A stretch of 64,000 nt of DNA from Patescibacteria group bacterium (GTDB lineage: Bacteria > Patescibacteriota > Microgenomatia > Levybacterales > UBA12049), in contig JBBTXS010000001.1 in the NCBI GenBank assembly GCA_038062115.1, forward strand, positions 10,607 to 74,606, given 5' to 3'. Of the stretch, positions 24,690 to 61,451 are shown one piece after another. Every line of letters begins with the position of its first letter. Position 1 is the first letter of the stretch. A program made the translations under genes and the position numbers. Under the pieces are notes generated by a model. That model ran no database searches. It worked only from the letters and a program-made list of their open reading frames with translations, and was not told the DNA's origin.

Positions 24690-24888
24690 TTTCAGCTATC
24701 TTTACTGCAGGACTACAGGTTGGCATTAATATTATAATTTATGAACATCTTCTAATAAAATAGTTTTGTATTTTTATCGCCAAAGAAATTACAATTGTGG
24801 AAGGTAAAAATGACACACTTTGATTTATCACCGGCGGAGAAAATTACGAAATGATAATGGGGACAGGTAGAGTACAATTAAATTAACT

Positions 24889-28636: not shown

Positions 28637-29101
28637 ATGGATAGCTACATTGATGTAAGTTTTCATGTGATAGTTAGCTTGCTTTTGGGTTATATTATCT
28701 TTAGACTTTTTGGCTTAAGCGATAGAAAAAGTCTTTTGATATCCTTTCTTTTTACCTTTTTGGGGGGTGTATTAATTGACGTAGATCATTTTATTGATCA
28801 TTTCTTGAGTTTTGGCATTAATTTTAATTACGATTACTTTATAAAAGGAGAGTACTTTTTAAAAAGTAATAAGGCATATATAGTTTTTCATGCGGTTGAA
28901 TACATAATTCTTTCAGGCTTACTGGCTATTCTCCTAGGAGATAGAAAAAAGAAAATGATCTTTACCGCGTTGGCATTAGGGATGCTTTTTCATATTCTGA
29001 TTGATATTTTGTTATTCCCCAATCCTATAAAGGGTTATTTTATCCTTTATAGAATGTTGAATGGTTTTAATGTCGATATGAGTAAAGGAATTTTAGAATA
29101 A
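28637..29101 (+). CDS. Small polytopic membrane protein, YdjM/DUF457-like metal-dependent hydrolase (tentative)
   Basis: It has four to five TM helices with a DVDHFIDH motif and conserved His residues. Confidence 0.35.
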   Translation: MDSYIDVSFHVIVSLLLGYIIFRLFGLSDRKSLLISFLFTFLGGVLIDVDHFIDHFLSFGINFNYDYFIKGEYFLKSNKAYIVFHAVEYIILSGLLAILLGDRKKKMIFTALALGMLFHILIDILLFPNPIKGYFILYRMLNGFNVDMSKGILE

Positions 29102-30800
29102 TAAAGATAGAAACTCCAACTAGACTAAGTAGGCTTACAAATTTTAACAGCTTGTAAATAGGAATATCTTCATAGACTACTTTTAATTCGTACAAGCCTT
29201 GAGGAGCTGAAAGGTGAATGATCCCTTTATCTGAAGGTTTAAGAGGAATTACCTTTTCGTTTACGAACGCTTTCCACCCTGGGAAATAGAGAGTATTTTC
29301 TTGAAGCAAAAGAGGGGTTTTTGCAGAAACGCTATAAATATGTTTTGTTGATGCTCTAATAAGATTTTTTATTTCTCCCTCTCCTTTTATTATTTCTATG
29401 TTGCTTTTTGGGCGTTTAGAAAACCATGGATGTTTTATGTCAATCCATTTTGAATTTGCATAAAAATGTCCTTCGCCCTCGGAAGTACTTTTCCAAAGGT
29501 TTGCTTTCAAAATGCTGTCATTAATCTCTGGAATGACTCTTCTATGGCCCCAATTTAGAATAGTATATCCAATAGTGGCAACGATTAGTACATATACAAG
29601 AACATTTCTCTTTACTAAAATTAAACTAAGAAATCCAGCTAGGATTGCAATAGAAAAAGTCAGTAACAACAAAAGACGATGAGATCCCGCTGCTTTAACA
29701 AAAGAAAAATTCTCCCATAAAAATTTTGAATAAGGAGAAATAAGAAAAAGTATTATAAAACTTATAATTAACCAAAACCTTTGATCGTTTAAGTATTTTT
29801 TAGCCGTTTTTTTTAAAAAAAACAAAATAAAACTTGCTATAACAACAAAAATTTGTGTATAACCGATCAAAAAAGATATTTGTCCGATTGGTCCTTGAAA
29901 TAAAAATCCCGCTCTCCATGGAGAATAGAATAATTCAAAAACTTGCGGAAAATATACTGTTGTCACCGGAGCTTTTTGAATGTAAAGATAGGAGTTAAAT
30001 ATAAAAGGAGCAAGCCAAATATAAAGAGAAAGAATTGTAGTAATCATAAAGACATAGATATTTTGCATGAGTCCATTTTTAGCACGATGTTTGTTCAAAA
30101 AAAATATATATGGGGCTATAATGCTTATGGCAAAAAAACCGATTATTGCATGGGACATAATTAGAAGAGAAAGAAAAGTTCCAGCCCACAATAAAAAGGT
30201 AAAATCTTTTTTTTCATAATACTTTTGAATAAAAAAAAATATTAGCGGGAGAATTGTAAATGCCAATATTTCTCCAATTGCTATCTTAAAATGAATGTCA
30301 ATTAAGTGATAGGGGGTAAAGATATAAAATATAGAAGCAGTAAAAGCGGCTAAACTATTTTTTAATAATTTTTGAGAGAATATATACATAAAAATTCCAG
30401 ACAAAATAATATTAAGAGCTAAGAATATTTTCATACTTTCGATAAAACCTAGTCCCAAAAAATGCAAAAAAGATAAAAGATAATAGGGCAATGGGTAGTT
30501 GAAAATAAAAAGCGGATAGCCGTAGGTTGCGTTTAAATCTTTTGCCCAGGATGGCATTATATTTCTATCTATCAAAGAGTCATAGAATGCCATACTTCTA
30601 TAAATATGTATATTAAAATCCCCACTTTCATAGTCGCCATTTCTAAAAATACTTATGATTGGCAATATCGAAATTAGTATCAATAAAAAAAATAAATTAA
30701 TTTTCTGTTTTGGGAAAATGAACTTATAAATTAATAAGCCACTAATTAATATAAGTGAAGAAGCAATATTAACTACAATCATTCTATACGGATCAAGCAT
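29067..30800 (-). CDS. Large polytopic membrane protein, PTPS-related / GT-C-like
   Basis: The protein has more than 12 TM helices. The first-loop pattern GDYESGDFNIHIYRSMAF...PSWAKDLNATYGYPLFIFNYPLPYY resembles the membrane PTPS-related family (COG5617-type). Confidence 0.55.
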   Translation of the reverse strand: MLDPYRMIVVNIASSLILISGLLIYKFIFPKQKINLFFLLILISILPIISIFRNGDYESGDFNIHIYRSMAFYDSLIDRNIMPSWAKDLNATYGYPLFIFNYPLPYYLLSFLHFLGLGFIESMKIFLALNIILSGIFMYIFSQKLLKNSLAAFTASIFYIFTPYHLIDIHFKIAIGEILAFTILPLIFFFIQKYYEKKDFTFLLWAGTFLSLLIMSHAIIGFFAISIIAPYIFFLNKHRAKNGLMQNIYVFMITTILSLYIWLAPFIFNSYLYIQKAPVTTVYFPQVFELFYSPWRAGFLFQGPIGQISFLIGYTQIFVVIASFILFFLKKTAKKYLNDQRFWLIISFIILFLISPYSKFLWENFSFVKAAGSHRLLLLLTFSIAILAGFLSLILVKRNVLVYVLIVATIGYTILNWGHRRVIPEINDSILKANLWKSTSEGEGHFYANSKWIDIKHPWFSKRPKSNIEIIKGEGEIKNLIRASTKHIYSVSAKTPLLLQENTLYFPGWKAFVNEKVIPLKPSDKGIIHLSAPQGLYELKVVYEDIPIYKLLKFVSLLSLVGVSIFIILKFLYSYRH

Positions 30801-30838: not shown

Positions 30839-33397
30839 ATGAAGGTATCTTTTATAGCAACAGTTTTAAATGAAGAAAAGACAATCGATGACTTTCTAAA
30901 GTCTATTTTTTACCAATCACGAATTCCAGATGAAGTAATTGTTGTGGATGGAGGAAGTACCGATGCTACGGCATCGGTAATCTCAAATCTCAAATCTCAA
31001 ATCTCAAATAAACGAATAAAGTTTAAATTTATCATAAAGAAGGGAAATAGATCGGTAGGGAGGAATGAGGCGATCAGAAAGGCTAACAACGAAATTATTG
31101 TTTGTTCTGATGCTGGATGCGTTTTGGACAAGAATTGGGTAAAAAATGTAATCGAACCATTTTTTGACTCAGGAGTAGATGTTGTGGCAGGGTATTATAA
31201 AGGAAAAGCAAATTCTATATTTCAGAAATGTTTGATCCCCTATGTCTTAGTGATGCCAGATAAAATTAATCCTCAGAGTTTTCTGCCAGCAACGCGCTCC
31301 ATGGCTTTTAGAAAATCTGTATGGGAAAAAATTGGAGGATTTCCAGAAGAATTTTCCTATAATGAAGACTATGTTTTTGCTCAAAAATTAAAAAAAGCTG
31401 ACGCTAAAATAGTTTTTGCTAGAAATGCTATCGTTTACTGGATACCAAGAAAAAACTTTAAAGAAGCATTTATTATGTTTTTCTGCTTTTCCCTTGGAGA
31501 TACAGGGGCTGGAATTTATAGATCAAAAGTTTTGCTTTTATTTGCAAGATACTTAGTCTTGCCTTATTTGTTATTTTTGGCAGTTGTTTATAAATCTACT
31601 ATTCTATCATTTTTTATAACGCTGTCCTTACCTATTTATGTAATATGGGCGATAGTTAAAAATTATAAATATGTAAAAGACAAAAAGGGTTTATTTTTTC
31701 TTCCTTTAATACAATTTACATCAGATTTAGCTATAATTTTAGGAACATTTGGCGGTTTCATAAAATATGTAAGTGTTAACTCGCTATTTAATGTGATTAG
31801 AAAAAATAAGACTGTAAGTATTATTATTGGAATATATATTCTTACAATGTTATCAGTTTTAAACTGGGGCATCCCAAATCCTAATCACCCTTTTTCGTAT
31901 CATATGGATGAATGGCATCAATTGCAGGCAGTGCGCGCAGTTTTTAAATACGGAACGCCAAATGTTGAGGGCGCAGCTAATGGAACAATGTTTCATTTTT
32001 TTCTCTCGGGTGTTTATCTTCTGCCATTTATTATGTTAGACATAGTAAACCCTTTTGCAATAAAGTCAGCTATTGGAGCACTTTTAGTGCAGGAAAGATT
32101 ATTCCAGATCATGAGGCTAAATACCCTCTTATTTGGTATAGCATCGATTATACTAATTGCAAAAATTGCAAAAAATTACTTTAAAATTAATCCATTTATT
32201 GCAGCATTTATTTTTACAGTAACACCTATTTGGCTAATTCTTAGCAATTACTTCAAATACGATATTGCGCTCATTTTTTGGATATTACTTTCTATGCTTT
32301 TTACTCTTCGATTTTGTCAAAAACCAACCCTGGGAAATTTAATAATGGCCTCAGTATTAAGCGCATTTGCCTTGTCTTCGAAAATTAGCGCTTTGCCAAT
32401 TGTATTAGTTTTAGTTTTTTCATTTATGCTATTTACTCCAAAGGCTCACAAAAGTTACAAAAATTTGTTCATTGCCTTATTAGTCTTCTCCTTTACCTTC
32501 GCATTGTTTGGAATACCTGATTTAGTTTTTGGAAAAGGAAACCTATTTGGGTATTTTTATTCCAATGTTTTTACGGTTCCCAAGCTTAGTAGTAATTACA
32601 TTTATGGCAATTGGCTTTATTTATTTTTCTACTCGTTTATATTGGAATTTGGTCACACGCTATCTATTTTATTTGGGTTAAGCTTAATCTTTTGGCTTAT
32701 AAATTTTATAAGAGCCATAAAGAATAAAACATTGAGTCATAAGAAATATGAATTGTTTATTTTTATTGCTTTTGTCATTTATCTTATTAGCCTTCTTCCT
32801 CTTAAAATATATGCGACAGGCAATAGGGCACTTGTACTACTTCCTTTTATGGCTATAATGACTGGATCTTTTTTACAAGTGTTTCTTAAACGGAGAAAAA
32901 AAGTTAGTATTCTTATATTAGCATTGCTTTTTATTCTGCAATCATTCGAATCCTTCTCTTGGGTTTATATGAAATGGGCGAAAAGTCCACAAGAAGAAGC
33001 ATCCATTTGGATTGCGAAGCATACTACACAAGGTACAACAATTGGAATAGAAAACATTCCCATTTATCAATCGCTGCCCGATATTATTGTTAAAGAATTT
33101 TATTTTAAAGAATATAATCAGGATAAAAATAATTTATTTAAATATGAAGTAATCGATAGTAAAACAAAAAATTTGCCAAGTGTAATTGTTGTTTCAAATG
33201 GCAATGGTTCTTTGCATTACGAAAGAAATTCTTCTAAAAAAAACCTGGTAGTTCGTATCCAAAAGGAAAACTATAAACGTGCCGCTGTGTTTATGCCAGA
33301 TTTTACTTTTTTTAGATTTTTTGGTACAGAACAAGGATTTTATTTTTTGCCATTGGTTGCTTCTCCGCTAAGCATTGAGGTGTACAGAAAAATCTAG
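30839..33397 (+). CDS. Fusion protein: GT2 (GT-A) glycosyltransferase domain plus GT-C-like polytopic membrane domain
   Basis: The N-terminal ~230 aa carry VSFIATVLNEEKTI, VIVVDGGSTDAT and CSDAGC. They are followed by ~600 aa with many TM helices and an MDEWHQ loop motif resembling the PMT/ArnT DE motif. Confidence 0.75.
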   Translation: MKVSFIATVLNEEKTIDDFLKSIFYQSRIPDEVIVVDGGSTDATASVISNLKSQISNKRIKFKFIIKKGNRSVGRNEAIRKANNEIIVCSDAGCVLDKNWVKNVIEPFFDSGVDVVAGYYKGKANSIFQKCLIPYVLVMPDKINPQSFLPATRSMAFRKSVWEKIGGFPEEFSYNEDYVFAQKLKKADAKIVFARNAIVYWIPRKNFKEAFIMFFCFSLGDTGAGIYRSKVLLLFARYLVLPYLLFLAVVYKSTILSFFITLSLPIYVIWAIVKNYKYVKDKKGLFFLPLIQFTSDLAIILGTFGGFIKYVSVNSLFNVIRKNKTVSIIIGIYILTMLSVLNWGIPNPNHPFSYHMDEWHQLQAVRAVFKYGTPNVEGAANGTMFHFFLSGVYLLPFIMLDIVNPFAIKSAIGALLVQERLFQIMRLNTLLFGIASIILIAKIAKNYFKINPFIAAFIFTVTPIWLILSNYFKYDIALIFWILLSMLFTLRFCQKPTLGNLIMASVLSAFALSSKISALPIVLVLVFSFMLFTPKAHKSYKNLFIALLVFSFTFALFGIPDLVFGKGNLFGYFYSNVFTVPKLSSNYIYGNWLYLFFYSFILEFGHTLSILFGLSLIFWLINFIRAIKNKTLSHKKYELFIFIAFVIYLISLLPLKIYATGNRALVLLPFMAIMTGSFLQVFLKRRKKVSILILALLFILQSFESFSWVYMKWAKSPQEEASIWIAKHTTQGTTIGIENIPIYQSLPDIIVKEFYFKEYNQDKNNLFKYEVIDSKTKNLPSVIVVSNGNGSLHYERNSSKKNLVVRIQKENYKRAAVFMPDFTFFRFFGTEQGFYFLPLVASPLSIEVYRKI
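30980..31007. repeat. Heptanucleotide tandem repeat (ATCTCAA)x4 inside the GT2 domain
   Basis: Four perfect 7-nt units read directly from the sequence. They encode ISNLKSQISN at about codons 47-56. Confidence 0.9.
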
Positions 33398-33413: not shown

Positions 33414-34295
33414 ATGGAGAAAGTATTAATTATAGGTGGTTGTGGGTATATTGGCAGTAGGTTATTCCAATACTTAAGTGAAAAAAAATATAGCGTAGAT
33501 ACAGTTGACACAGAATGGTTTGGAAATTTTGTCAATCCTAAAAATATAAAATGTAATTATAATACATTGAGTAAAAAATTTTTAAATTCTTATGGCGTTA
33601 TAATTCTTCTCGCAGGCCATTCTAGTGTACAGATGTGTAAAGATAATATGTTTGCATCATTTAAGAATAACGTTAACAACTTTATAAATTTACTAAGTAA
33701 GTTATCAGACCAGCTATTTATTTATGCAAGCTCCTCAAGTGTTTACGGCAACACCAAAAATATTAGCGCTAAAGAAGATTACGAGAGATACATACCAACA
33801 AATTATTATGACCTAACAAAAAAAACGATCGATTATTATGCGCATCTTAGCAAAATTTCTTATTATGGGTTAAGACTTGGTACAGTTAATGGTTTTTCTC
33901 CAAATTTAAGAGTAGATTTGATGATTAACAAAATGTATGAAGCCGCTCGGAATACAGGAAAGATTAAAATTATTAATGCTAATACTCACAGGCCAATTTT
34001 AGGAATGATTGATCTTTGTCGGGCAATCTCTCAAATTATTCGCATGAAAGATAAACCCGGAATATATAACCTTGCAAGCTTTAATATGACTGTTAAAGAA
34101 ATTAGTTACTATGTAAAAAAAACTGTTGGGAAAGTAGGGATAATTGAAGGGAAAGGGCAAGCAGGCTATAATTTCTCAATTAACACAAATAAATTTAAAA
34201 ACACTTTTAATTTTAAGTTTCTAGATGATGTAGAAAGTATAATTGCTTCTCTTAAAATAGGGTATAAAAAAGCATACAAGTCGATACGCTTCTAA
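33414..34295 (+). CDS. NAD-dependent sugar epimerase/dehydratase (extended SDR)
   Basis: IIGGCGYIGS is the Rossmann motif, and ASSSSVYG and YYDLTKK (YxxxK) are present. Confidence 0.75.
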   Translation: MEKVLIIGGCGYIGSRLFQYLSEKKYSVDTVDTEWFGNFVNPKNIKCNYNTLSKKFLNSYGVIILLAGHSSVQMCKDNMFASFKNNVNNFINLLSKLSDQLFIYASSSSVYGNTKNISAKEDYERYIPTNYYDLTKKTIDYYAHLSKISYYGLRLGTVNGFSPNLRVDLMINKMYEAARNTGKIKIINANTHRPILGMIDLCRAISQIIRMKDKPGIYNLASFNMTVKEISYYVKKTVGKVGIIEGKGQAGYNFSINTNKFKNTFNFKFLDDVESIIASLKIGYKKAYKSIRF

Positions 34296-34298
34296 GTT

Positions 34299-35510
34299 AT
34301 GAAGAATAGAGAAACCTGCAGATGTTGTAACGAAAACAATTTATTTCCTTATCTTAATTTAGGCTTGCAACCTCTTGCTAATAGTTATCATAAAGGTGAG
34401 AACTTAAAAAAATATCAACTAAAAGTAATGCTATGTGAAAATTGTTTCCATAGTCAATTAAGCGTTGTAGTTGAAAGAGACTTAATGTTTAAAAACTACC
34501 TATATGTTAGCGGTACTACAGAAACTTTTCGAAATCACTTAAAGCAGTTAGCCGAAGATGCTGTATCAAGAGTTGGTGAGAAATTAAACTTAGATGTATT
34601 AGATATTGCATGTAATGACGCAACTTTACTTGAGTATTTTAAAAAGCTAGGTTGTTATATACAAGGTGTTGATCCAGCAGAGAATTTACAGCTAATTACA
34701 AAAAAAAAGAAAATTCCGGTTGAGGTTAATTACTGGACTCAAAATCTTGCGAGAAAACTAAGAAAAAAGTTCGATATCATTACTGGTACCAATGTATTTG
34801 CACACGTTGACGACTTAGACGAATTCTTAAAGGCGTGTAAAATTGCCTTAAAACCCAATGGATTGCTGATATTGGAATTTCCTTATTGTAATATGATGAT
34901 TGAAAATAATGAATTTGACACGGTTTATCATGAGCATCTTTCGTATTTTCTAGTGAATTCATTCAAAACTCTTATAGAAAGAATGAACTTTCATATTATA
35001 GATTTATTACAAACACCCATTCACGGGGGAAGCATTCGTTTTTTTCTAAAAGATGGAAATGGCGAGCATTCTAATAAGGTTTATAGGATTATCAAACTAG
35101 AAAAAGCTAAAGATCTTTTAGATAAAGCAGCATATAAAATTTTTTCAAACCGTATTCATAGAAATAAAAAAGATTTAAAAAATTTAGTTAAAAAATTAAA
35201 AGAAAAAAAGCAAAAAATGATTGGGTATGGAGCGTCTGCAAAGGGAAATACTATGCTTAACTACTTCAAACTAGACCTAGATTATGTAGTAGATGATAAT
35301 CCATTGAAATGGGGGTATTTTACTCCGGGAAGAAATATACCTATTCGAAACCCAAATGATATGAAATTGGAAAAAAATGGATTGAATATTGTAATTTTAT
35401 CATGGAATTTTTCCAAAGAAATATTAACAAAAATAGCTAACATTCGGGGGGAAAATAGAAGTGACAGATATATTTTGTATATTCCAACTGTGCAGATTAA
35501 ATCAGTATGA
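34299..35510 (+). CDS. NDP-sugar C-methyltransferase, TcaB9/TylCIII-like (paralogue 1)
   Basis: The N-terminal 4-Cys motif is CRCC...CENC, with SAM motif VLDIACNDATLL. The ~400 aa three-domain layout includes YGASAKGNT in the C-terminal domain. Confidence 0.7.
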   Translation: MKNRETCRCCNENNLFPYLNLGLQPLANSYHKGENLKKYQLKVMLCENCFHSQLSVVVERDLMFKNYLYVSGTTETFRNHLKQLAEDAVSRVGEKLNLDVLDIACNDATLLEYFKKLGCYIQGVDPAENLQLITKKKKIPVEVNYWTQNLARKLRKKFDIITGTNVFAHVDDLDEFLKACKIALKPNGLLILEFPYCNMMIENNEFDTVYHEHLSYFLVNSFKTLIERMNFHIIDLLQTPIHGGSIRFFLKDGNGEHSNKVYRIIKLEKAKDLLDKAAYKIFSNRIHRNKKDLKNLVKKLKEKKQKMIGYGASAKGNTMLNYFKLDLDYVVDDNPLKWGYFTPGRNIPIRNPNDMKLEKNGLNIVILSWNFSKEILTKIANIRGENRSDRYILYIPTVQIKSV

Positions 35511-36367
35511 TATACGATTGTTTTAATTTTTTTGACGAGTTTGACTTACTTGATATTCGACTTAATACTCTTGATAAAGTAGTTGACGCATTCGTTTTAG
35601 TAGAAGCAACAGTTACTTTTACTAATAAAAAAAAGCCTTTATATTATAGGGAAAATAAAGACAGATTTAAAAAATTCAATAGTAAAATTATTCATGTTGT
35701 AATAGAGGATAGTCCAAATGTATGGAATCCGTGGATTATCGAAAACCATCAATTAAGCTGTGTAACAAGAGGGTTAAAGCGAGCAAAACCTACTGATACA
35801 ATTCTTATATCATGCGTAGACGAAATTCCAAAACCTGAAAAAATTCTTGAGTGGAGAAAGAAACATGGAAAATATAAAGTTTTCTTAGAGCGCATGAGTT
35901 ATTATTATCTTAATTTCGTAAATTACAATGGAGAGCCGTGGCTTGGAACGCAAATGTATACATATAAAGATTTATTAACCTACAAAAGTCCTTATATAGC
36001 GCGCTTCACGCCTCCAGACGTAAGAATACGAGATGGAGGATGGCATTTTTCTTATATGGGGGGCATAAAGCAGATTCAAAAAAAATTGGCCTCTTTTTCT
36101 CATCAAGAATATAATAACAAAAATTATAATACGGAAGATAAAATTCTTAAGGCAATTTTGGAGAGAAGGGATTTTTTACCGACAAAATTACGTTTTAAGG
36201 TTATGGACGATCATTTACTACCTTCGTATGTTGTAGAAAATAAAGAAAAATTTTCTAAGATGCTTATAAATCCATCAAAGCTTTACTCTTATAGAAATTT
36301 ACAAATGTTAAATTTTTACAGAATAAAAAATCTTCTAAGGACAGTAAAGCACAAAATTTACCACTAA
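35507..36367 (+). CDS. Glycosyltransferase family 17-like (GnT-III-like)
   Basis: MIYDCFNFFDEFDLLDIRLNTLDKVVDAFVLVEATVTFTNKKKPLYY matches the conserved N-terminus of bacterial GT17 homologues. Confidence 0.7.
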   Translation: MIYDCFNFFDEFDLLDIRLNTLDKVVDAFVLVEATVTFTNKKKPLYYRENKDRFKKFNSKIIHVVIEDSPNVWNPWIIENHQLSCVTRGLKRAKPTDTILISCVDEIPKPEKILEWRKKHGKYKVFLERMSYYYLNFVNYNGEPWLGTQMYTYKDLLTYKSPYIARFTPPDVRIRDGGWHFSYMGGIKQIQKKLASFSHQEYNNKNYNTEDKILKAILERRDFLPTKLRFKVMDDHLLPSYVVENKEKFSKMLINPSKLYSYRNLQMLNFYRIKNLLRTVKHKIYH

Positions 36368-45651: not shown

Positions 45652-46698
45652 ATGAAAATTGAGTACAAAAAAGTTATCGAGAGAAAAACTCTACTCATAA
45701 CTGGTGGAACTGGGTCTTTTGGCAATAGCGTTGTTGGAAAACTTCTGGAATACAATCCTAAAAAGATCATAATTTTTAGCAGGGACGAAAAGAAACAACT
45801 TGATATGAGGAATAAATACGCGAGTCAGTTACTAAAATTTGTAATTGGTGATGTCCGAGATAAAGAAAGTATTGAAAAGGCTATAGACGGAGTAGATTAC
45901 GTATTTCATGCTGCAGCCCTGAAACAAGTCCCAACCTGTGAGTTTTTTCCACTTGAAGCAATAAAAACGAATGTTTTGGGTACTTATAATGTTATTAACT
46001 TAGCAATGCATCACAAAGTTAAGAAAGTTGTAATACTTAGTACAGATAAAGCAGTGTATCCAATAAATGTGGTTGGTATGACAAAGGCACTAGTGGAAAA
46101 AGTCATGATAGCAGAGTCAAAAAACTACACTGATTTAGGCAAGACTGATACGGTAGTATGTTGTGTTAGATATGGAAATGTTCTCTATACCAGGGGATCA
46201 GTTTTGCCATATTTCGTGTCTATTTTTAAGGAAAATAAAAAGTTGCCAGTTACACATCCGAATATGACTCGTTTTTTGCTACCGTTAATAGACGCTGTTG
46301 ATTTAGTGCTCTATGTTCTTTCAAATGGAGAAAATGGGCATATTTATGTGAGAAAGTCCCCAGCGTGCACCTTAAAAACTCTGGCTGAGTCTGTCTGTAA
46401 GATTTTTAATTATAAAAAAGGGTACGAAGAAGTTGGAGTACGAGCAGGTGAAAAAATGCATGAGACTTTAGTAACAAAGGAAGAGCTATTAAGAACGGGA
46501 GAATCTTCACGCTACTTTAAAATACCTCCTGAAAGTCAAGGGCTTGATTATAACAAATACTTTTATAGAGGAGACATAGATATAGAGAGTATTAAGCCCT
46601 ATACCTCTGAAAACACAAAAAGACTCAACGTTTTAGAAACTGTTAGGATTTTATTAAAACTTCCTGAGATACAGCACGAGTTGAAATTAAGGAAGTAA
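45652..46698 (+). CDS. UDP-GlcNAc 4,6-dehydratase, CapE/FnlA-like
   Basis: LLITGGTGSFGN, STDKAV, YGNV..TRGSV and MTRFLLPLIDAVDLVLYVL resemble the CapD/FnlA/PseB family, closest by motif to FnlA/CapE. Confidence 0.75.
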   Translation: MKIEYKKVIERKTLLITGGTGSFGNSVVGKLLEYNPKKIIIFSRDEKKQLDMRNKYASQLLKFVIGDVRDKESIEKAIDGVDYVFHAAALKQVPTCEFFPLEAIKTNVLGTYNVINLAMHHKVKKVVILSTDKAVYPINVVGMTKALVEKVMIAESKNYTDLGKTDTVVCCVRYGNVLYTRGSVLPYFVSIFKENKKLPVTHPNMTRFLLPLIDAVDLVLYVLSNGENGHIYVRKSPACTLKTLAESVCKIFNYKKGYEEVGVRAGEKMHETLVTKEELLRTGESSRYFKIPPESQGLDYNKYFYRGDIDIESIKPYTSENTKRLNVLETVRILLKLPEIQHELKLRK

Positions 46699-47421
46699 AA
46701 AGGCTTTGAATGCGTACTTAAAGTAATCGCGGAAAATTCTAAAATTATACTTGAAATGGGATTTAGAATTAGTTCTTGGGGTTAATGTATATGGTATTTC
46801 TTTAAAACGAGAGTGTTTTTTTTTAAGATAGTACAATTCCTCCAAGATTATAGAAAAACTTTTTTCTTTAAATTTAATTCCTTTCAAGAGTTCTAACCTG
46901 ACCATTCTAAATCCATTGGTACAATCTTTTATTCCAACATTAAAAAGTAGTGATGCTATGTAATTGCCGATTATAGAAATTAATTGTCTAAAATAGGGGA
47001 CGTTAACGACTTTTCCTCCTTTAATGTAGCGCGATGCTTTAACACAGTCTATATCCTCTGACATAACTTTTATAAAGTCAACTATATATTTAGGTGGGTT
47101 AGTAAGGTCAGAATCCATTGTGAGATAAAATTTGTATCTCTCTTTAATAGCATACGAAATTCCTGTCTGAAGAGCTGCACCATATCCATTATTCTTTTTA
47201 TGACTTAGAATAACTAATTGATTTTTATATTGTTTTTTTTTATTTTTAAGTAGATCGGCGGTTTTATCTATACTTCCGTCATCAACAATTATTAATTTTA
47301 TTTGATTTTTGATCTTGGTTATTTCTTTGATAACCTTATCGATACATGAAGAAGCAGTATTTTCTTCATTAAACATGGGGATTATTATACAAAGTAATTT
47401 ATTTTTAAATTTTGATACCAT
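46687..47421 (-). CDS. GT2 polyprenol-phosphate glycosyltransferase (DPM1/GtrB/CsbB-like)
   Basis: LCIIIPMFNEE, IIVDDGSIDKT and MDSDL are present. The start is set at Met42 of the ORF-track ORF (47421), because the extension overlaps the upstream epimerase gene. Confidence 0.75.
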   Translation of the reverse strand: MVSKFKNKLLCIIIPMFNEENTASSCIDKVIKEITKIKNQIKLIIVDDGSIDKTADLLKNKKKQYKNQLVILSHKKNNGYGAALQTGISYAIKERYKFYLTMDSDLTNPPKYIVDFIKVMSEDIDCVKASRYIKGGKVVNVPYFRQLISIIGNYIASLLFNVGIKDCTNGFRMVRLELLKGIKFKEKSFSIILEELYYLKKKHSRFKEIPYTLTPRTNSKSHFKYNFRIFRDYFKYAFKAFLLP

Positions 47422-48595
47422 CTTCCATAAAAGAATGCTGTATAGGCAAATGATTATCTTCTGGTAGGTGACCACGAAGCCGATTCTCTCGCAGCCGCTT
47501 AACAATATCCTCGGCAATTTCTTGTGTTCCATTTCTGCTCCCAAATGGCTGGTGCCACTTGGTCACTGTTATTTTCTCAAGCTTTTTAAAAATAATTTCA
47601 GGCGTGTATTTTTCCGATTTGTCTGGGTCAAATTTTACTGCAGAACGGATATCATAAACCTGTGGCCGTTCCGTTGCTTTTCTAATATTGATACAGGGAA
47701 TATTGAGAATGCAGGCTTCTTCATTAACTGTTCCAGAATCAGTAATAATTGCTTTAGCATGGGTCATAAGAATAAGAATTTTTTCGTATCCTATTGGGTC
47801 GGTCATGATGAGGTTTTTTGGAAGCTTTTGTTTCATTTCTTTTATGACAGCTTGTGTTCGGTAACTTGCAGCAAAATAAACAGTATGCTTGGCGTGTTCA
47901 ATTAGATTCAAAATAGCCAGGAATGACTTTTGTATATGGACATTTTCTCTTCTATGGCAGGTCATAAAATAATAATTGTTTTTTTGTAGTCCTCTTTTGG
48001 CAAAAAATTCTTCAGTTGCCATTTTCTCCAATTTTACTTTTTTACTAAAATAAAATCTTTCCAAGATATCAATGCCAGGATGTCCGGTAACCACAATATA
48101 TTTGGGATTAAGTCCTTCTGCGATACCTTGGTCTTTATACCCTTGCGCATATGTATAGATTACATCAGCAAGATGGTCAGCAAGCGTTCTATATTTTTCC
48201 TCAGGTAACCGCCAATCATACGAGTGCCAGCATCCTTCGATATGAAGAATTGGGATATTCAATTGAGCTGCAGCAATGCAACCAACTACAGTATTGGTAT
48301 CTCCCAAAAATACTACAGCATCGGGTTTGATTTTATGTAACACTGGGTACAATGAAGCAATAGCTTTTGATGCAACTTCTGCATCTGTCTCTCCTTTGCA
48401 ATCAAGCTCTATGTCTGGCTTTTTGACATGAAGTTCTTTAAAAAATACGCCTTTTAAATTATCTGAGTAATGCTGACCAGACCAAATAAGAATCAAATCA
48501 ACATCTTTTGCTTTTTGAAGATGCTCCAATATGAGTACTGCGCGAATAAGTTCTGCTCGTGTTCCCAAAACAAATGCTAATTTATGTTTTTTCAT
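47405..48595 (-). CDS. UDP-N-acetylglucosamine 2-epimerase (non-hydrolysing type, WecB/FnlC-like)
   Basis: VLGTRAELIR, ILHIEGC...LPEEKYR and VTGHPGIDIL blocks match the epimerase_2 family. Confidence 0.8.
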   Translation of the reverse strand: MKKHKLAFVLGTRAELIRAVLILEHLQKAKDVDLILIWSGQHYSDNLKGVFFKELHVKKPDIELDCKGETDAEVASKAIASLYPVLHKIKPDAVVFLGDTNTVVGCIAAAQLNIPILHIEGCWHSYDWRLPEEKYRTLADHLADVIYTYAQGYKDQGIAEGLNPKYIVVTGHPGIDILERFYFSKKVKLEKMATEEFFAKRGLQKNNYYFMTCHRRENVHIQKSFLAILNLIEHAKHTVYFAASYRTQAVIKEMKQKLPKNLIMTDPIGYEKILILMTHAKAIITDSGTVNEEACILNIPCINIRKATERPQVYDIRSAVKFDPDKSEKYTPEIIFKKLEKITVTKWHQPFGSRNGTQEIAEDIVKRLRENRLRGHLPEDNHLPIQHSFMEDGIKI

Positions 48596-49461
48596 ATAAG
48601 TTCTTTCTCAAAATCAAGTAATTCTTTGAGCGCTTGGGGCAATGATCTAGTATATTTATTTAGAGTTGATGAGTCAAGATAATAACTACTAAGTGCTCGA
48701 GAAATTTTTTTACCGTGTGATTTTTCAACAACTTTTGAGGAGCGAATAAGTTGTAAAAATTCTTTAATGATTCTGAATTTCGTAACAGGCCCAACAGGTG
48801 CAAAATGATAAATGTTAGATTGTTTTGATAATTCAGAAAATCTGTTGTTTTGAATAATATACTTGCATAGGGTGGCAAACTGGCAAGTTGTGCAACCTGT
48901 CCAGATTTGATTTGTAAATCCACGTAATTTTTTCTGCTTTGCTCTTTTTGCCCATTCCAATATTCCTTTATGTTTTATTGGATCAAGTCCGATGATTGAT
49001 GTTCGAATATTCAAGGCATTAGGAACGCGTAATTCCCCAAGCAATTTACTTATTCCGTAATTACTATCAGCAGATGCAGGAGATATCTCATCTACTTTTC
49101 CAGCTAAAGAGGAAAATACCGCATCAGATGAAACGTGAATAATTTTAAAGTTATGCTTTTTTGATAATTCGAGTAAAATGTGAGGGAAAAGAGAGTTAAT
49201 ATGAATTAATTTGCTTGTAGGTGCATTTTGCTCAACAATTCCTATACAATTTATAACAAAATCAATCTTTTTTAATTTTTTTTGAATAATTTCAAAATCT
49301 TTTTTAGTAAATTGTGCACGGAATAAAAACAAGTTTTTTTTTATTTCACTTTTGTTTCTTGTTGTACCAAAAATCGAATTTGGAAAATAATTTTTTAAAA
49401 ATCTAAAGACTATTCTTCCGGTCATTCCTTTTGCTCCAAGCACAACGACTTTATCTTTCAT
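48592..49461 (-). CDS. RmlD-like NAD(P)-dependent sugar reductase (SDR)
   Basis: VVVLGAKGMTGRIV is the Rossmann motif, with SSDAVF and YGISK (YxxxK). It is 289 aa. Confidence 0.65.
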   Translation of the reverse strand: MKDKVVVLGAKGMTGRIVFRFLKNYFPNSIFGTTRNKSEIKKNLFLFRAQFTKKDFEIIQKKLKKIDFVINCIGIVEQNAPTSKLIHINSLFPHILLELSKKHNFKIIHVSSDAVFSSLAGKVDEISPASADSNYGISKLLGELRVPNALNIRTSIIGLDPIKHKGILEWAKRAKQKKLRGFTNQIWTGCTTCQFATLCKYIIQNNRFSELSKQSNIYHFAPVGPVTKFRIIKEFLQLIRSSKVVEKSHGKKISRALSSYYLDSSTLNKYTRSLPQALKELLDFEKELI

Positions 49462-50729
49462 AAGCTAATTATTTTTACCTTTGGTAATGGGATAATAAAT
49501 TTTAGTTTATTTTTTAGATTAATGTTTCTTTTTTTTATTTCATTAATAAATGACCAAGCAAACAACAAGATATAGTTAGGTTTACTCTTATGAAGTTTTT
49601 TTAATGAAGGATAAATTTTTAAATGTGTTCCGGGAGTAAAAGCATATTGCTTTGCTGGTGAGTCATCCACTATATAATCAAGATATTTTTTATCAATTCC
49701 ACAATAATTCATAATAATTGTAGCTCTTCCAGATGCCCCATATCCTACAATTTTCATTTTTTTTTGTTTTAGATTATTAAGAATTTTGAGAAGACCGTTT
49801 TTTTGTTTGGTTATTTTTTTTGCTAACTTTGCGAAAGTTTCAGCTTTGTGTAGGCATTGTTCCTTTTCTTTTCTAATAAGCTTATTAATTTTTTCTGAGA
49901 CAGCATTTTTTCCAGTCCTTTTATTTTGCAGATAATACATTATTGACCCTCCATGTAATTTTGCAAATTTTATATCAAATATTTCCATCTTATGCATTTC
50001 AAAGAACTTTTGCAGAGTAAGTAAAGAATAGTAATATTGATGCTCATGATATATCATGTCATATTGTGTTTTTCTAGCAAGATTTGCTAAGTAATGTACT
50101 TGAAAAGCTAAAATTCCATCTTTTTTTAGAAGTAGTTTTATTCCGCGGACTATATCATGCATGTCTTGGATATGTGCAAAAGTGTTAAAGCTATAAATTG
50201 CATCTACCTTGCCATATTTACCATTGATTTCTTTTGCAAGTTTTTGGGTAAAGTACGCATTAATTATTGGTAGACCTTTTTCAATTAATGGTTTTACAAT
50301 ATTTGTTGCGGGATCAACTCCTAAAGCTTTGTAGCCATTTTTTATTAAAGATTTAATAAAAGATCCATCATTGCATCCGATCTCAACTATAAAGGTTTTT
50401 GAAGCATTAGGATAAAGTTTTTTAATATACTTGACGTTTTCATCGAAATAATCAACAAGAGTTTTTATAGCTGACGAATGGTAAAAATAATCTTTAAAAA
50501 TTAAATCCTTATTAATAACTGCATTAGCTTGAAGTAGATAACATTTTTTGCAAAAAATAAGTTCCAATGGATAAAATTTTTCATTCTCTAGGGTTTTTTT
50601 ACTAAGATTTTTAAGGAATTCCCCGGCAAGAGGCATTAATCCCAAATTTATAACTGGTTCAACTTGGTTACTAAAACAGAAGCGACAATAGTCGTAATAC
50701 CTATATTCGCCAATATTTTTAGGAGTCAT
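49458..50729 (-). CDS. NDP-sugar C-methyltransferase, TcaB9/TylCIII-like (paralogue 2)
   Basis: The 4-Cys motif is CRFC...CKKC, with SAM motif IVEIGCNDGS and YGASGRATI in the C-terminal domain. Confidence 0.7.
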   Translation of the reverse strand: MTPKNIGEYRYYDYCRFCFSNQVEPVINLGLMPLAGEFLKNLSKKTLENEKFYPLELIFCKKCYLLQANAVINKDLIFKDYFYHSSAIKTLVDYFDENVKYIKKLYPNASKTFIVEIGCNDGSFIKSLIKNGYKALGVDPATNIVKPLIEKGLPIINAYFTQKLAKEINGKYGKVDAIYSFNTFAHIQDMHDIVRGIKLLLKKDGILAFQVHYLANLARKTQYDMIYHEHQYYYSLLTLQKFFEMHKMEIFDIKFAKLHGGSIMYYLQNKRTGKNAVSEKINKLIRKEKEQCLHKAETFAKLAKKITKQKNGLLKILNNLKQKKMKIVGYGASGRATIIMNYCGIDKKYLDYIVDDSPAKQYAFTPGTHLKIYPSLKKLHKSKPNYILLFAWSFINEIKKRNINLKNKLKFIIPLPKVKIISL

Positions 50730-60719: not shown

Positions 60720-61451
60720 TAAGTGCATTTTTATATTAGTTATTTTTAACCTTAAAACTGTAAAAAACGCTTCTTTTAACTCTTTTAAGTTTAGATTTGA
60801 ACGATTTATGTCAACTGGTATAAAATCTATTGGAATCTCCGCAAAACTAAAACCTTTTTTATAAATTTGGTTTGCAATTTCCGTAAGAACAATAAAACCA
60901 TTGGATGCAACTAAATTAAAGTCGATTGTTTCAAGAACGTATCTTCTGTAGCACCTAAAACCGCTTGTATTATCGGTTAATGAAATACCTAACATAAATT
61001 TAATCCATAGATTGGCAAAGCGGCTTATTAGTCTTCTTTTTAAGCTCCATTTGATTATTTGTGAAGAGACCATATACCTAGAAGCAACTACCACGTCATA
61101 TTTTTTTGCTTTTTCTATTAATCTTGGTAGGTCATTTGGATTATGAACTAAATCAGCATCCATTTCTATAAATAAAGCTGCCTTTTTATCCTTGAGAGCT
61201 TCTTTGAACCCTCTAACAACAGCCGATCCTCTTCCGCCTTTTGATTTTCTAACAATAACATTTATTCTTTTGTTTCCTAGAAAATTTTTATTTATTATTT
61301 GCGCTGTTTTATCGGGAGAGTTGTCGTCAACTACTAAGATTTTTGCATTTGGTACATTATTTAATGTTCCCAATAGAACCTTTATTATCGAACCTTTTGC
61401 ATTATAAGTTGGTACTACTATGATAATATTTTTGTCCTTCGATTTTATCAT
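60705..61451 (-). CDS. GT2 polyprenol-phosphate glycosyltransferase (DPM1/CsbB-like)
   Basis: IIVVPTYNAKGS, VVDDNSPDKT, GRGSA and MDADL are present. It overlaps the YfhO-like gene upstream by 4 nt. Confidence 0.8.
   Translation of the reverse strand: MIKSKDKNIIIVVPTYNAKGSIIKVLLGTLNNVPNAKILVVDDNSPDKTAQIINKNFLGNKRINVIVRKSKGGRGSAVVRGFKEALKDKKAALFIEMDADLVHNPNDLPRLIEKAKKYDVVVASRYMVSSQIIKWSLKRRLISRFANLWIKFMLGISLTDNTSGFRCYRRYVLETIDFNLVASNGFIVLTEIANQIYKKGFSFAEIPIDFIPVDINRSNLNLKELKEAFFTVLRLKITNIKMHLLNNF

What the first reader, a model, noticed from the sequence alone, without database searches (positions are those of the whole stretch)
34299..35510. Three paralogous TcaB9/TylCIII-type sugar C-methyltransferases in one locus (34299, 49458 and 59448)
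All three proteins are about 400-423 aa. They share the diagnostic layout: an N-terminal CxxC...CxxC zinc module, a class I SAM domain and a C-terminal YGAS(A/G/T)(K/R)G domain.

Characterised members methylate carbon atoms of NDP-4-keto-6-deoxyhexoses to make branched-chain sugars, as in macrolide and aminocoumarin deoxysugars and a few unusual LPS sugars. Three copies, each beside different partner genes, predict several C-branched or otherwise unusual methylated deoxysugars in this organism's envelope glycans.

The partners are:
- An SDR and GT17 (paralogue 1).
- An RmlD-like reductase and a 2-epimerase (paralogue 2).
- The CsbB/YfhO-like pair (paralogue 3).
Basis: partly seen in the sequence, partly recalled or inferred. 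Interest (0 to 1): 0.55.

Follow-up and report, generated by a model that had tools for sequence, protein, structure and literature searches.

The report
Three sugar C-methyltransferase paralogues, CPR bacterium
A glycan-synthesis locus of an uncultured Patescibacteria (CPR) bacterium does carry three old, diverged copies of the TylCIII/TcaB9 sugar C-methyltransferase family; each sits in its own sugar-donor module, one in a conserved UDP-GlcNAc-derived deoxy-amino-sugar cassette and one in an uncharacterised subfamily with a changed active site.

Summary
ORFs 34299-35510 (+), 49458-50729 (-) and 59448-60719 (+) each have the zinc domain (PF08421), a class I SAM domain and PF08484. Their best PDB matches are MtmC, TcaB9 and KijD1 (E 1e-37 to 1e-64).

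- **Relationship:** They are only 30-32% identical. Each heads its own conserved clade (NJ bootstrap 100), mostly in Levybacteria-like Patescibacteria.
- **P1 and P2:** Both keep all five TcaB9 active-site residues and group with the solved C3-methyltransferases.
- **P2 context:** It lies in a conserved five-gene cassette: methyltransferase, RmlD-like reductase, 2-epimerase, small GT2 and an FnlA/CapE-like UDP-GlcNAc 4,6-dehydratase. The dehydratase is therefore inside the window. The predicted product is a C-methyl-branched 2-acetamido-2,6-dideoxy-L-hexose.
- **P1 context:** It has a dedicated, co-conserved non-dehydratase SDR.
- **P3:** It belongs to a separate deep subfamily in bacteria and archaea. 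His181 is Asp and Tyr222 is Val/Cys/Leu in all members examined. In distant lineages this subfamily sits next to GDP-mannose 4,6-dehydratase. In this window and in Levybacteria it sits only among polyprenyl-phosphate GT2 and GT-C-type membrane transferases.

C-methylation is well founded for P1 and P2 and only inferred for P3. Interest is moderate.

The parts
34299..35510 (+). P1: TylCIII/TcaB9-family methyltransferase, 403 aa. It keeps all five TcaB9 active-site residues. It has a unique G108A change in SAM motif I.
   Evidence: Best PDB hit is MtmC 4rv9, E 5e-63. Its clade of 120 homologues is 53-68% identical.
33414..34295 (+). SDR1: extended SDR, 293 aa, ending 4 nt before P1. Motifs are SSSSVYG and YYDLTK, with no TDE dehydratase motif. 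Probably a C4 ketoreductase or C4 oxidoreductase partner of P1.
   Evidence: Orthologues 55-58% identical sit directly upstream of P1 orthologues in L008 and L009.
35507..36367 (+). GT17-family glycosyltransferase whose start overlaps the P1 stop. It is not conserved beside P1 orthologues.
   Evidence: PF04724, E 4e-29.
30839..33397 (+). GT2 plus PMT_2 (GT-C-like) fusion protein, 852 aa, about 14 predicted TM segments, heading the P1 operon.
29067..30800 (-). PTPS_related polytopic membrane protein, 577 aa, 11 predicted TM segments. It recurs near P1-type and P3-type genes in related loci.
49458..50729 (-). P2: TylCIII/TcaB9-family methyltransferase, 423 aa. All five active-site residues are kept. 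It is the first gene of a minus-strand operon.
   Evidence: Best PDB hit is KijD1 5t64, E 7e-64. Clade.
48592..49461 (-). RmlD-like reductase, 289 aa, overlapping P2 by 4 nt. Probably the 4-ketoreductase of the cassette.
   Evidence: Orthologues 40-45% identical sit next to P2 orthologues in L004-L006.
47405..48595 (-). Non-hydrolysing UDP-GlcNAc 2-epimerase-like protein, 396 aa (WecB/FnlC/WbvD type).
   Evidence: PF02350, E 4e-71; wecB, 195 bits.
46687..47544 (-). Small GT2 resembling polyprenyl-phosphate glycosyltransferases (PpgS, ArnC, PgfS). The true start is probably downstream of the listed TTG.
   Evidence: Conserved in the cassette.
45652..46698 (+). FnlA/CapE-type UDP-GlcNAc 4,6-dehydratase/5-epimerase, 348 aa, convergent with the P2 operon. 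It is the supplier of the 4-keto-6-deoxy substrate.
   Evidence: Polysacc_synt_2 plus 2C; TIGR04130 FnlA 400 bits against PseB 319; 4j2o E 4e-110, CapE E 5e-103; TDKAVYPINVVGMTK, no Tyr.
59448..60719 (+). P3: member of a distinct 'FYD' subfamily of the TylCIII/TcaB9 family, 423 aa. The His181 equivalent is Asp190, the Tyr222 equivalent is Leu231 and the residue-180 equivalent is Tyr189. Tyr76, Glu224, His225 and the four zinc cysteines are kept.
57571..59424 (+). U617: polytopic membrane protein, 617 aa, 9 predicted TM segments, with no Pfam, NCBIfam or PDB match. It is the conserved upstream neighbour of P3 in several related loci.
60705..61451 (-). Small GT2, 248 aa (PpgS, ArnC, AglJ-like polyprenyl-phosphate glycosyltransferase). 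It is convergent with P3 and overlaps its 3' end. The pairing is conserved.
61448..63841 (-). YfhO-family GT-C-type membrane protein, 797 aa, 12 predicted TM segments.

Best explanation
The window comes from a Patescibacteria (CPR) genome whose closest relatives for these three genes are Levybacteria. From about 26.7 kb to its right end it carries a large envelope-glycan locus. The three genes are ancient paralogues of the zinc-containing TylCIII/TcaB9 family of SAM-dependent nucleotide-sugar C-methyltransferases. Each serves a different sugar-donor module.

**Module 2 (best supported).**
1. The FnlA/CapE-like enzyme converts UDP-GlcNAc to a UDP-2-acetamido-2,6-dideoxy-L-hex-4-ulose.
2. P2 deprotonates the carbon next to the 4-keto group (C3 or C5). 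It uses the conserved Glu-His pair and transfers a methyl group from SAM.
3. The RmlD-like enzyme reduces C4.
4. The 2-epimerase inverts C2.
5. The small GT2 probably loads the branched HexNAc onto polyprenyl phosphate, for transfer outside the membrane by a GT-C-type enzyme.

**Module 1.** P1 works with its dedicated SDR1, a non-dehydratase that is either a 4-ketoreductase or a C4 oxidoreductase. The nucleotide-sugar substrate is not identified.

**Module 3.** P3 belongs to a separate subfamily with Asp in place of His181 and Val/Leu/Cys in place of Tyr222. It most likely methylates a GDP-4-keto-6-deoxymannose-type substrate made elsewhere in the genome. The neighbouring small GT2 and the YfhO and U617 membrane proteins would then pass the product on.

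**Shown and inferred.**
- Shown: family membership, residue conservation, synteny.
- Inferred: substrates, position of methylation, order of steps, lipid-carrier route.
For: **Source organism.** The 100% database hits are named 'Patescibacteria group bacterium' and lie on a 374,945-bp contig.

**Family membership.**

**Residue conservation.**
- The four Cys, Tyr76, Glu224 and His225 are invariant in 115-120 sequences of each clade.
- His181 and Tyr222 are invariant in the P1 and P2 clades.
- In the P3 clade they are replaced: Asp in 120/120, Val in 118 and Leu in 2.
- The same signature is seen in 74 of the 80 genome loci, down to 45% identity, across bacteria and archaea; the remaining six lacked a hit for one of the two motif patterns.
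- That His181 was a mutagenesis target is visible in PDB 4e2w ('lcnipy' against wild-type 'lchipy').

**Tree.** Each clade has 100% bootstrap. The split P3 clade | (TcaB9, KijD1, MtmC, P1 clade, P2 clade) also has 100%.

**P2 cassette.**
- The set methyltransferase, RmlD-like, Epimerase_2, small GT2 and Polysacc_synt_2 is found in the window and in L004, L005 and L006; L020 has these genes except that no small GT2 was detected; L031 has the full set. The methyltransferase is 47-58% identical in these loci.
- L024 and L029 carry partial cassettes.
- L064 has the cassette without the methyltransferase, which fits an add-on step.
- FnlA/CapE identity of the dehydratase.
- Genes overlap by 4 nt, which suggests translational coupling.

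**P1 and SDR1.** The pairing is seen in L008 and L009. RmlC-like, FdtA-like and DegT genes lie nearby in P1-type loci.

**P3-type and GMD.**
- A gmd-type dehydratase lies within 200 bp in 8 loci, and within 7 kb in 13 of about 27 distant loci.
- TIGR01472 gmd scores are 336-556 bits against 82-118 bits for RmlB in five of them; the L065, L074 and L082 enzymes score only 172-190 bits for gmd against 134-142 for RmlB and are less clearly GMD.
- L083 has a GDP-fucose-synthase-like neighbour.

**Small GT2s.** They resemble polyprenyl-phosphate glycosyltransferases. Many GT-C-type polytopic proteins are present in the locus.
Against: - No enzyme of any of the three clades has been assayed.
- No GMD, or any other dehydratase or reductase, lies near P3 in this window, in 10 kb downstream, or in about 55 Levybacteria-type loci. 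The P3 substrate here is therefore unknown.
- P3 lacks two residues that are invariant in the solved C3-methyltransferases, so a different chemistry cannot be excluded.
- For P1 no 4-keto-forming enzyme is identified, unless SDR1 or the shared FnlA-like enzyme provides it.
- P1 has a unique G108A change in SAM motif I. Ala occurs at that position in 11 of 118 P2-clade members, so it is probably tolerated.
- The tree is neighbour-joining, with only three characterised references, all C3-specific actinomycete enzymes.
- The roles assigned to the TcaB9 residues rest on my recollection of Bruender & Holden 2012, which could not be read here.
Confidence: 0.6

Rival explanations
1. All three are equivalent TylCIII-like C3-methyltransferases acting on dTDP- or UDP-4-keto-6-deoxyhexoses, supplied by a 4,6-dehydratase elsewhere in the genome. 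They differ only in downstream tailoring.
For: - All three share the same three-domain architecture and have strong matches to dTDP-sugar C3-methyltransferases.
- The zinc site, Tyr76, Glu224 and His225 are conserved in all three.
Against: - P2 is tied to a UDP-GlcNAc-specific FnlA/CapE-type dehydratase inside the window.
- P3 is a separate subfamily with two active-site replacements. In other lineages it is linked to GDP-mannose dehydratase, not RmlB.
- Identity is only 30-32%.
Confidence: 0.12
2. P3 and its 'FYD' subfamily are not C-methyltransferases. They would be O- or N-methyltransferases that keep the fold. Alternatively they act on a sugar already bound to polyprenyl phosphate, within the conserved GT2/GT-C glycosylation block.
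For: - His181 is Asp and Tyr222 is Val/Cys/Leu throughout the subfamily. From memory, these residues sit at the keto/enolate end of the TcaB9 substrate.
- In about 55 Levybacteria-type loci, P3 is surrounded only by GT2, GT-C-type and flippase genes, with no keto-sugar-forming enzyme.
- The convergent overlap with a polyprenyl-phosphate-type GT2 is conserved.
Against: - The Glu224-His225 pair and Tyr76 are invariant.
- The same subfamily lies directly next to gmd-type 4,6-dehydratases in Thaumarchaeota, DPANN archaea, Chloroflexota and Parcubacteria. These enzymes produce exactly the kind of 4-keto sugar a C-methyltransferase needs.
- P3 is predicted soluble, with no TM segment.
- No O- or N-methyltransferase with this architecture was found in the literature searched.
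Confidence: 0.2
3. P1 and SDR1 form a self-contained pair. SDR1 oxidises C4 of an ordinary NDP-hexose, as the Cj1427-type C4-dehydrogenase does. P1 methylates C3 or C5. C4 is then reduced again. The product would be a C-methyl hexose that is not 6-deoxy.
For: - SDR1 lacks the dehydratase TDE motif and has GalE-like SSSSVYG and YxxxK motifs.
- Its best PDB hit is 6vo6, E 2e-14. I recall this entry as Cj1427. Cj1427 is a GDP-heptose C4-dehydrogenase (PMC10680097).
- SDR1-P1 adjacency is conserved, with no dehydratase beside it, in the window, L008 and L009.
Against: - The PDB match is weak and typical of any pair of extended SDRs.
- The identity of 6vo6 could not be verified.
- L007 shows a P1 orthologue in a classical deoxysugar context, with an RmlC-like gene and several SDRs.
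- A plain 4-ketoreductase role explains the data equally well.
Confidence: 0.15

Closest known systems
TcaB9 (Micromonospora chalcea, PDB 3ndi) and KijD1 (PDB 5t64): dTDP-sugar C3-methyltransferases
   Same: - Same three-domain layout, four-Cys zinc site and SAM domain.
- P1 and P2 keep Tyr76, His181, Tyr222, Glu224 and His225.
- E-values are 1e-49 to 1e-64.
   Different: - Only about 30% identical.
- From a CPR bacterium, in an envelope-glycan locus rather than an antibiotic cluster.
- The P2 substrate is predicted to be a UDP-HexNAc-derived ketosugar, not a dTDP-2,3,6-trideoxy amino sugar.
- P3 lacks His181 and Tyr222.
MtmC (Streptomyces argillaceus, PDB 4rv9): D-mycarose 3-C-methyltransferase, also reported to have 4-ketoreductase activity
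   Same: - Best PDB hit of P1 (E 5e-63) and P3 (E 5e-52).
- The HEH motif is shared.
   Different: - Bifunctionality is reported for MtmC (cited in PMC3539893).
- Nothing here tests it for P1 or P3.
- P1 and P2 have separate reductase genes next to them.
TylCIII / EryBIII / AviG1 and Coxiella burnetii CBU_0691 (proposed virenose C3-methyltransferase in LPS)
   Same: CBU_0691 is a precedent for this family working in cell-surface glycan synthesis, possibly on a GDP-4-keto-6-deoxymannose substrate (PMC3539893).
   Different: - CBU_0691 is reported as 42-44% identical to TylCIII, EryBIII and AviG1 (the same paper elsewhere gives 30% for a TylCIII sequence), so it is a TylCIII-type enzyme.
- Its function is also only predicted.
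UDP-L-RhaNAc/L-QuiNAc pathway (WbvB, WbvR, WbvD) and UDP-L-FucNAc pathway (FnlA/B/C, CapE/F/G). Named from my own knowledge.
   Same: The window has an FnlA/CapE-type dehydratase, an RmlD-like reductase and a non-hydrolysing 2-epimerase. This is the WbvB/WbvR/WbvD enzyme set.
   Different: - A TylCIII-family methyltransferase and a small polyprenyl-phosphate-type GT2 are inserted into the cassette and conserved with it.
- No such C-methylated HexNAc pathway was found in the literature searched.
NovU / CloU / CouU: C5-methyltransferases of noviose biosynthesis (same family, from my own knowledge)
   Same: Same family. They show that methylation can occur at C5 next to the 4-keto group.
   Different: Their sequences could not be obtained, so no comparison was made. 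C3 against C5 regiochemistry of P1-P3 remains open.

Membership tests
TylCIII/TcaB9-type nucleotide-sugar C-methyltransferases | Three-domain architecture: N-terminal zinc domain (PF08421), class I SAM domain, C-terminal PF08484 domain | tested here: met
   All three proteins score above the Pfam cut-offs. Full-length alignments to 3ndi, 4rv9 and 5t64.
TylCIII/TcaB9-type nucleotide-sugar C-methyltransferases | Four-cysteine zinc site (CxxC...CxxC) | tested here: met
   Present in P1, P2 and P3. Invariant in all three clades and in the three PDB references.
TylCIII/TcaB9-type nucleotide-sugar C-methyltransferases | Active-site residues Tyr76, His181, Tyr222, Glu224 and His225 (TcaB9 numbering): P1 and P2 | tested here: met
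   All five are invariant in 115 (P1 clade) and 118 (P2 clade) sequences and in the window proteins.
TylCIII/TcaB9-type nucleotide-sugar C-methyltransferases | Active-site residues Tyr76, His181, Tyr222, Glu224 and His225: P3 | tested here: not met
   Tyr76, Glu224 and His225 are kept. His181 is Asp in 120/120. Tyr222 is Val in 118 and Leu in 2, with Leu in the window protein. The same holds in loci from bacteria and archaea.
TylCIII/TcaB9-type nucleotide-sugar C-methyltransferases | Genomic link to an enzyme that makes an NDP-4-ketosugar and to a 4-ketoreductase | tested here: inconclusive
   - P2: met, with a conserved FnlA-like dehydratase and RmlD-like reductase.
- P1: only an SDR partner.
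- P3: not met in the window or in Levybacteria-type loci; met only in distant lineages, where it sits next to gmd.
TylCIII/TcaB9-type nucleotide-sugar C-methyltransferases | Grouping with biochemically characterised C-methyltransferases in a phylogeny | tested here: inconclusive
   In the NJ tree, the P1 and P2 clades fall with TcaB9, KijD1 and MtmC against the P3 clade (100% bootstrap). The order among references, P1 and P2 is unresolved (40-53%). No C5-, O- or N-methyltransferase outgroups were available.
TylCIII/TcaB9-type nucleotide-sugar C-methyltransferases | SAM-dependent methyl transfer to a carbon next to the 4-keto group | not testable with these tools
   Needs an enzyme assay and NMR of the product.
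UDP-2-acetamido-2,6-dideoxy-L-hexose pathway (WbvB/R/D, FnlA/B/C type) | FnlA/CapE-type UDP-GlcNAc 4,6-dehydratase/5-epimerase | tested here: met
   TIGR04130 FnlA scores 400 bits, below the 730-bit equivalog cut-off but above PseB at 319. PDB 4j2o E 4e-110 and CapE E 5e-103. No Tyr at the YxxxK position.
UDP-2-acetamido-2,6-dideoxy-L-hexose pathway (WbvB/R/D, FnlA/B/C type) | C4 reductase and non-hydrolysing 2-epimerase encoded alongside | tested here: met
   RmlD_sub_bind protein 48592-49461 and Epimerase_2 protein 47405-48595 (wecB model 195 bits, just under the 210 cut-off). Conserved in L004-L006, L020 and L031.
Polyprenyl-phosphate sugar / GT-C extracytoplasmic glycosylation (GtrB/CsbB-YfhO, ArnC-ArnT, PpgS type) | Small GT2 polyprenyl-phosphate glycosyltransferase together with a polytopic GT-C-type transferase | tested here: inconclusive
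   - The small GT2s match PpgS, ArnC and AglJ models only weakly: 64-68 bits against cut-offs of 325-529.
- YfhO, PMT_2 and PTPS_related proteins are present and have 7-14 predicted TM segments.
- No GtrA-type flippase was looked for.

The most novel reading that the evidence does not exclude
Two untested possibilities remain open.

1. The conserved P2 cassette makes a sugar class not yet described: a C-methyl-branched 2-acetamido-2,6-dideoxy-L-hexose. It would be delivered through a polyprenyl-phosphate carrier onto the cell envelope of CPR bacteria.
2. The P3 'FYD' subfamily has Asp for His181 and Val/Cys/Leu for Tyr222. It is spread over CPR bacteria, Chloroflexota, Thaumarchaeota and DPANN archaea. 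It would be a mechanistically distinct branch of the family, with a new substrate class (GDP-sugars) or a new regiochemistry or chemistry.
Probability: 0.35. Interest if true: 0.6.

Novelty: new variant of a known kind. Interest (0 to 1): 0.42.

Why it matters
Nothing is known experimentally about the surface glycans of CPR/Patescibacteria, which live attached to other cells. This locus suggests that their envelopes carry several C-branched sugars made by three separate modules.

Two parts of the result are directly testable in vitro with purified enzymes.
- The P2 cassette gives a concrete route from UDP-GlcNAc to a branched deoxy-amino sugar.
- The P3 subfamily is a large, cross-domain group of TylCIII-like enzymes with a changed active site, and none has been studied.

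For annotation, the result shows that the label 'TylCIII-like C3-methyltransferase' should not be transferred uniformly across this family.

Tried and rejected
- **TcaB9 and KijD1 papers.** Reading attempts by DOI and PubMed id failed; the papers are not held. The residue roles therefore rest on memory, plus the H181N mutant sequence visible in PDB 4e2w.
- **Literature searches.** Searches for TcaB9, tetronitrose, PF08484, TylCIII with O-antigen, C-methyltransferase with Patescibacteria, and CPR envelope deoxysugars were run. They gave only the Coxiella virenose in-silico paper and a general review. One search failed on syntax.
- **6vo6 identity.** Verification that 6vo6 is Cj1427 failed; the paper is not held.
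- **Plasmid search.** tblastn of P3 against plasmids found at best 38.6% identity, with only generic 'class I SAM-dependent methyltransferase' names. The Azospirillum context was uninformative.
- **NCBIfam.** No specific model exists for the three methyltransferases; only sub-threshold UbiG and BioC hits appeared.
- **U617 and U659.** No Pfam, NCBIfam or PDB match, even at E up to 10.
- **SDR1 as the missing 4,6-dehydratase.** Considered and rejected: it has no TDE motif, and the dTDP-glucose dehydratase model scores only 30 bits.
- **Recent tandem duplication.** Rejected: identity is 30-32% and the three clades are separately conserved.
- **Pseudogenes.** Rejected: the ORFs are full length, and each window protein deviates from residues that are at least 95% conserved in its clade at only 2-4 positions.
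- **Left part of the window.** Positions 8003-21768 were scanned for RmlA, RmlB or GMD. They hold a DsbD-like membrane protein and cell-division and cell-wall genes. ORFs below 8003 were not annotated.
- **Not run.** Structure prediction and fold search, because sequence matches to the only solved members are already unambiguous and no coordinates can be inspected.
Full report
**Observation**

The three ORFs are present exactly as stated: P1 34299-35510 (+, 403 aa), P2 49458-50729 (-, 423 aa) and P3 59448-60719 (+, 423 aa).
- Each matches Pfam Methyltransf_13 (zinc domain), class I SAM methyltransferase models and Methyltransf_14 (C-methyltransferase C-terminal domain), all above the curated thresholds.
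- The only strong matches among solved structures are MtmC (4rv9), TcaB9 (3ndi and its mutants) and KijD1 (5t64). E-values run from 1e-37 to 1e-64 over the full length.
- The CxxC pairs are at 7/10 and 46/49 in P1, 15/18 and 60/63 in P2, and 24/27 and 63/66 in P3.
- The YGAS motif reads YGASAKG in P1, YGASGRA in P2 and YGASTRG in P3.
- The three proteins are 30-33% identical to each other.
- NCBIfam has no specific model for them.

**Source and setting**

The identical database entries are annotated as a Patescibacteria group MAG, on a 374,945-bp groundwater contig.

The left part of the window holds cell-division and cell-wall genes: MraY, FtsW, MurG, FtsA, FtsZ, IleRS and RodA.

From about 26.7 kb to the right end there is a low-GC (about 30%) glycan locus. 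It contains:
- two flippases;
- GT4, GT2 and GT17 enzymes;
- two GT2-PMT_2 fusion proteins;
- PMT_2, PTPS_related and YfhO membrane proteins.

It continues about 4 kb beyond the window with PMT_2 and Wzy_C genes, followed by a type I restriction-modification system.

**Three separate clades**

Each paralogue retrieves its own set of 120 homologues: 53-68% identity for P1, 52-75% for P2 and 62-78% for P3. Where named, these are mostly Levybacteria or Patescibacteria.

I built a neighbour-joining tree with 100 bootstraps. It used representatives of the three clades, distant P3-type sequences, and TcaB9, KijD1 and MtmC transcribed from the HMMER alignments.
- Each clade has 100% support.
- The split between the P3 clade and everything else (references, P1 clade, P2 clade) has 100% support.
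- The order among references, P1 and P2 is unresolved (40-53%).

**Active site**

I aligned 353 clade members with the three PDB sequences. TcaB9 literature numbering equals chain index minus 2.
- The four zinc cysteines, Tyr76, Glu224 and His225 are invariant in all three clades.
- His181 and Tyr222 are invariant in the P1 and P2 clades.
- In the P3 clade His181 is Asp in 120/120 sequences. Tyr222 is Val in 118 and Leu in 2, with Leu231 in the window protein. Residue 180 is Tyr in 120/120.

That these positions are catalytically relevant is my recollection of Bruender & Holden (Protein Sci 2012), which I could not read. Independent support for His181 is that PDB 4e2w is a TcaB9 variant with Asn at that position (compare).

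P1 has a unique G108A change in SAM motif I. Ala at that position occurs in 11 of 118 P2-clade members, so it is probably tolerated.

**P2 module**

In three unrelated contigs (L004-L006) the P2 orthologue, 56-58% identical, is followed by four genes: an RmlD-like SDR, an Epimerase_2 protein, a small GT2 and a convergent or adjacent Polysacc_synt_2 protein. This is the arrangement of window 45652-50729.
- The same set recurs in L031; L020 has it without a detected small GT2.
- It recurs in part in L024 and L029.
- L064 has the cassette without the methyltransferase.

The Polysacc_synt_2 protein is of the FnlA/CapE type.
- TIGR04130 scores 400 bits against PseB at 319.
- PDB 4j2o gives E 4e-110 and CapE gives E 5e-103.
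- The active-site stretch is TDKAVYPINVVGMTK, without the Tyr of PseB-type enzymes. The CapE comparison here is from memory.

The enzyme set of dehydratase/5-epimerase, RmlD-like reductase and 2-epimerase equals the known UDP-L-RhaNAc/L-QuiNAc route (WbvB/WbvR/WbvD, from my own knowledge).

The most economical reading is that P2 methylates the UDP-4-keto-6-deoxy-L-HexNAc intermediate at C3 or C5 before C4 reduction. This gives a branched N-acetyl-6-deoxy-L-hexosamine.

The small GT2 resembles polyprenyl-phosphate glycosyltransferases such as PpgS, ArnC and PgfS, all below cut-off. This suggests a lipid-carrier route to a GT-C transferase.

**P1 module**

SDR1 (33414-34295) ends 4 nt before P1. 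Orthologues 55-58% identical occupy the same position in L008 and L009. L007 has an RmlC-like gene upstream and another SDR downstream.

SDR1 has the motifs SSSSVYG and YYDLTK and lacks the TDE motif of 4,6-dehydratases. The dTDP-glucose dehydratase model scores only 30 bits. It is therefore a reductase or C4 oxidoreductase, not the dehydratase.

Its best PDB match is 6vo6 (E 2e-14), which is weak. I recall 6vo6 as Cj1427. Cj1427 is a GDP-heptose C4-dehydrogenase (PMC10680097), but the link between the PDB code and Cj1427 could not be verified.

The GT17 gene is not conserved next to P1 orthologues. The P1 substrate remains unidentified.

**P3 module**

In L001 and L003, and in about 55 Levybacteria-type loci from a scan of species genomes, P3 lies among GT4, flippase, GT2-PMT_2, PMT_2, small GT2, U617 and PTPS_related genes. 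No dehydratase or reductase is nearby.

The convergent, overlapping small GT2 and the upstream 9-TM protein U617 recur in these loci. U617 has no Pfam, NCBIfam or PDB match.

The scan found 439 relatives. The 80 loci retained include Chloroflexota, Nitrososphaera, Nitrosarchaeum, Nitrosopelagicus, DPANN archaea, Saccharibacteria and Parcubacteria at 45-58% identity. Seventy-four of the 80 show both signature motifs, (S/A)(C/M)FYD and DN(I/V/M)(V/C/S)HEH; the other six lacked a hit for one pattern.

In these distant lineages a 4,6-dehydratase lies within 200 bp in 8 loci and within 7 kb in 13 of about 27.
- These dehydratases are GMD-like: five score 336-556 bits for TIGR01472 gmd against 82-118 bits for RmlB, while three (L065, L074, L082) score only 172-190 against 134-142.
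- L083 has a GDP-fucose-synthase-like neighbour.

By association, the subfamily probably acts on GDP-4-keto-6-deoxymannose. For the window genome this requires a GMD elsewhere, which I could not check.

The alternative is that the subfamily has a different chemistry, in line with the two active-site replacements. This cannot be excluded.

**Comparison with known systems**

P1 and P2 pass every sequence-level test for TylCIII/TcaB9-type C-methyltransferases. P3 passes the architecture and zinc-site tests but fails two of the five active-site positions.

A role of the family in surface glycans has a precedent only as a prediction, for Coxiella CBU_0691 and virenose (PMC3539893).

I found no description of a C-methyltransferase embedded in an FnlA/WbvR/WbvD-type cassette, none of the 'FYD' subfamily, and nothing on these genes in CPR bacteria.

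Multi-copy presence is a lineage trait. About 19 of 55 Levybacteria-type loci carry two or more family members within 17 kb. These include a further clade about 33% identical to P2.

**Verdict**

The genes are new members of a known family. Two aspects go beyond plain membership: the P2 cassette and the P3 subfamily.

No enzyme chemistry is shown. Substrates and regiochemistry are inferences from synteny and residue conservation. Interest is moderate (0.42).

Noticed in passing
window 50778-55292: Between P2 and P3 lie a thiolase (50778-51923), a FabG-like SDR (51875-52648), a polysaccharide deacetylase (52643-53524, -), a hexapeptide acyltransferase (53521-54216, -) and a class I methyltransferase (54318-55292, -). 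This looks like a supply of a 3-hydroxybutyryl-type acyl-CoA, with re-acylation of a de-N-acetylated amino sugar.
   Followed up: no
window 55582-57561 and 57571-59424: Two adjacent polytopic membrane proteins, of 659 and 617 aa with 8-9 predicted TM segments, have no Pfam, NCBIfam or PDB match and no detectable similarity to each other. Homologues recur next to P2-type and P3-type genes in related loci. They may be unrecognised GT-C-type transferases or polymerases.
   Followed up: partly
window 30839-33397 and 41105-43366: Two proteins fuse a GT2 domain to a PMT_2 (GT-C-like) membrane domain, at 852 and 753 aa. The fusion is conserved across Levybacteria-type loci.
   Followed up: partly
L064 about 9200-17200: A related genome carries the RmlD-like, 2-epimerase, small GT2 and FnlA-like cassette without any TylCIII-family methyltransferase. 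Its reductase is more distant (35%). This looks like the unmethylated version of the P2 pathway.
   Followed up: no
L015, L023, L032, L053 (upstream of the P3 homologue): A further family member, only about 33% identical to P2, sits next to a small GT2 and a U659-like protein beside P3. The family therefore has at least four clades in these CPR genomes. L053 carries four family members within 17 kb.
   Followed up: no
window 22466-26606: A ParB-like protein (22466-23311), a RhuM-family protein (24889-25902) and a PD-(D/E)XK nuclease (25902-26606) separate the cell-division genes from the glycan locus. GC falls from 35-41% on the left to about 30% in the glycan locus.
   Followed up: no
window 34299-35510 (P1 residue 108): P1 has Ala where 114 of 115 clade members have Gly in SAM-binding motif I (DIACNDA against DIACNDG). 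Ala occurs at this position in 11 of 118 P2-clade members.
   Followed up: partly
L090 1-5300 (about 5-10 kb beyond the right end of the window): A type I restriction-modification system (HsdM, HsdS), two NYN-domain proteins and a Bro-N protein follow the glycan locus.
   Followed up: no
window 36392-37867 and 39843-41108: One locus holds two Polysacc_synt_3 flippases, only 24% identical to each other. This fits more than one lipid-linked glycan being exported.
   Followed up: no
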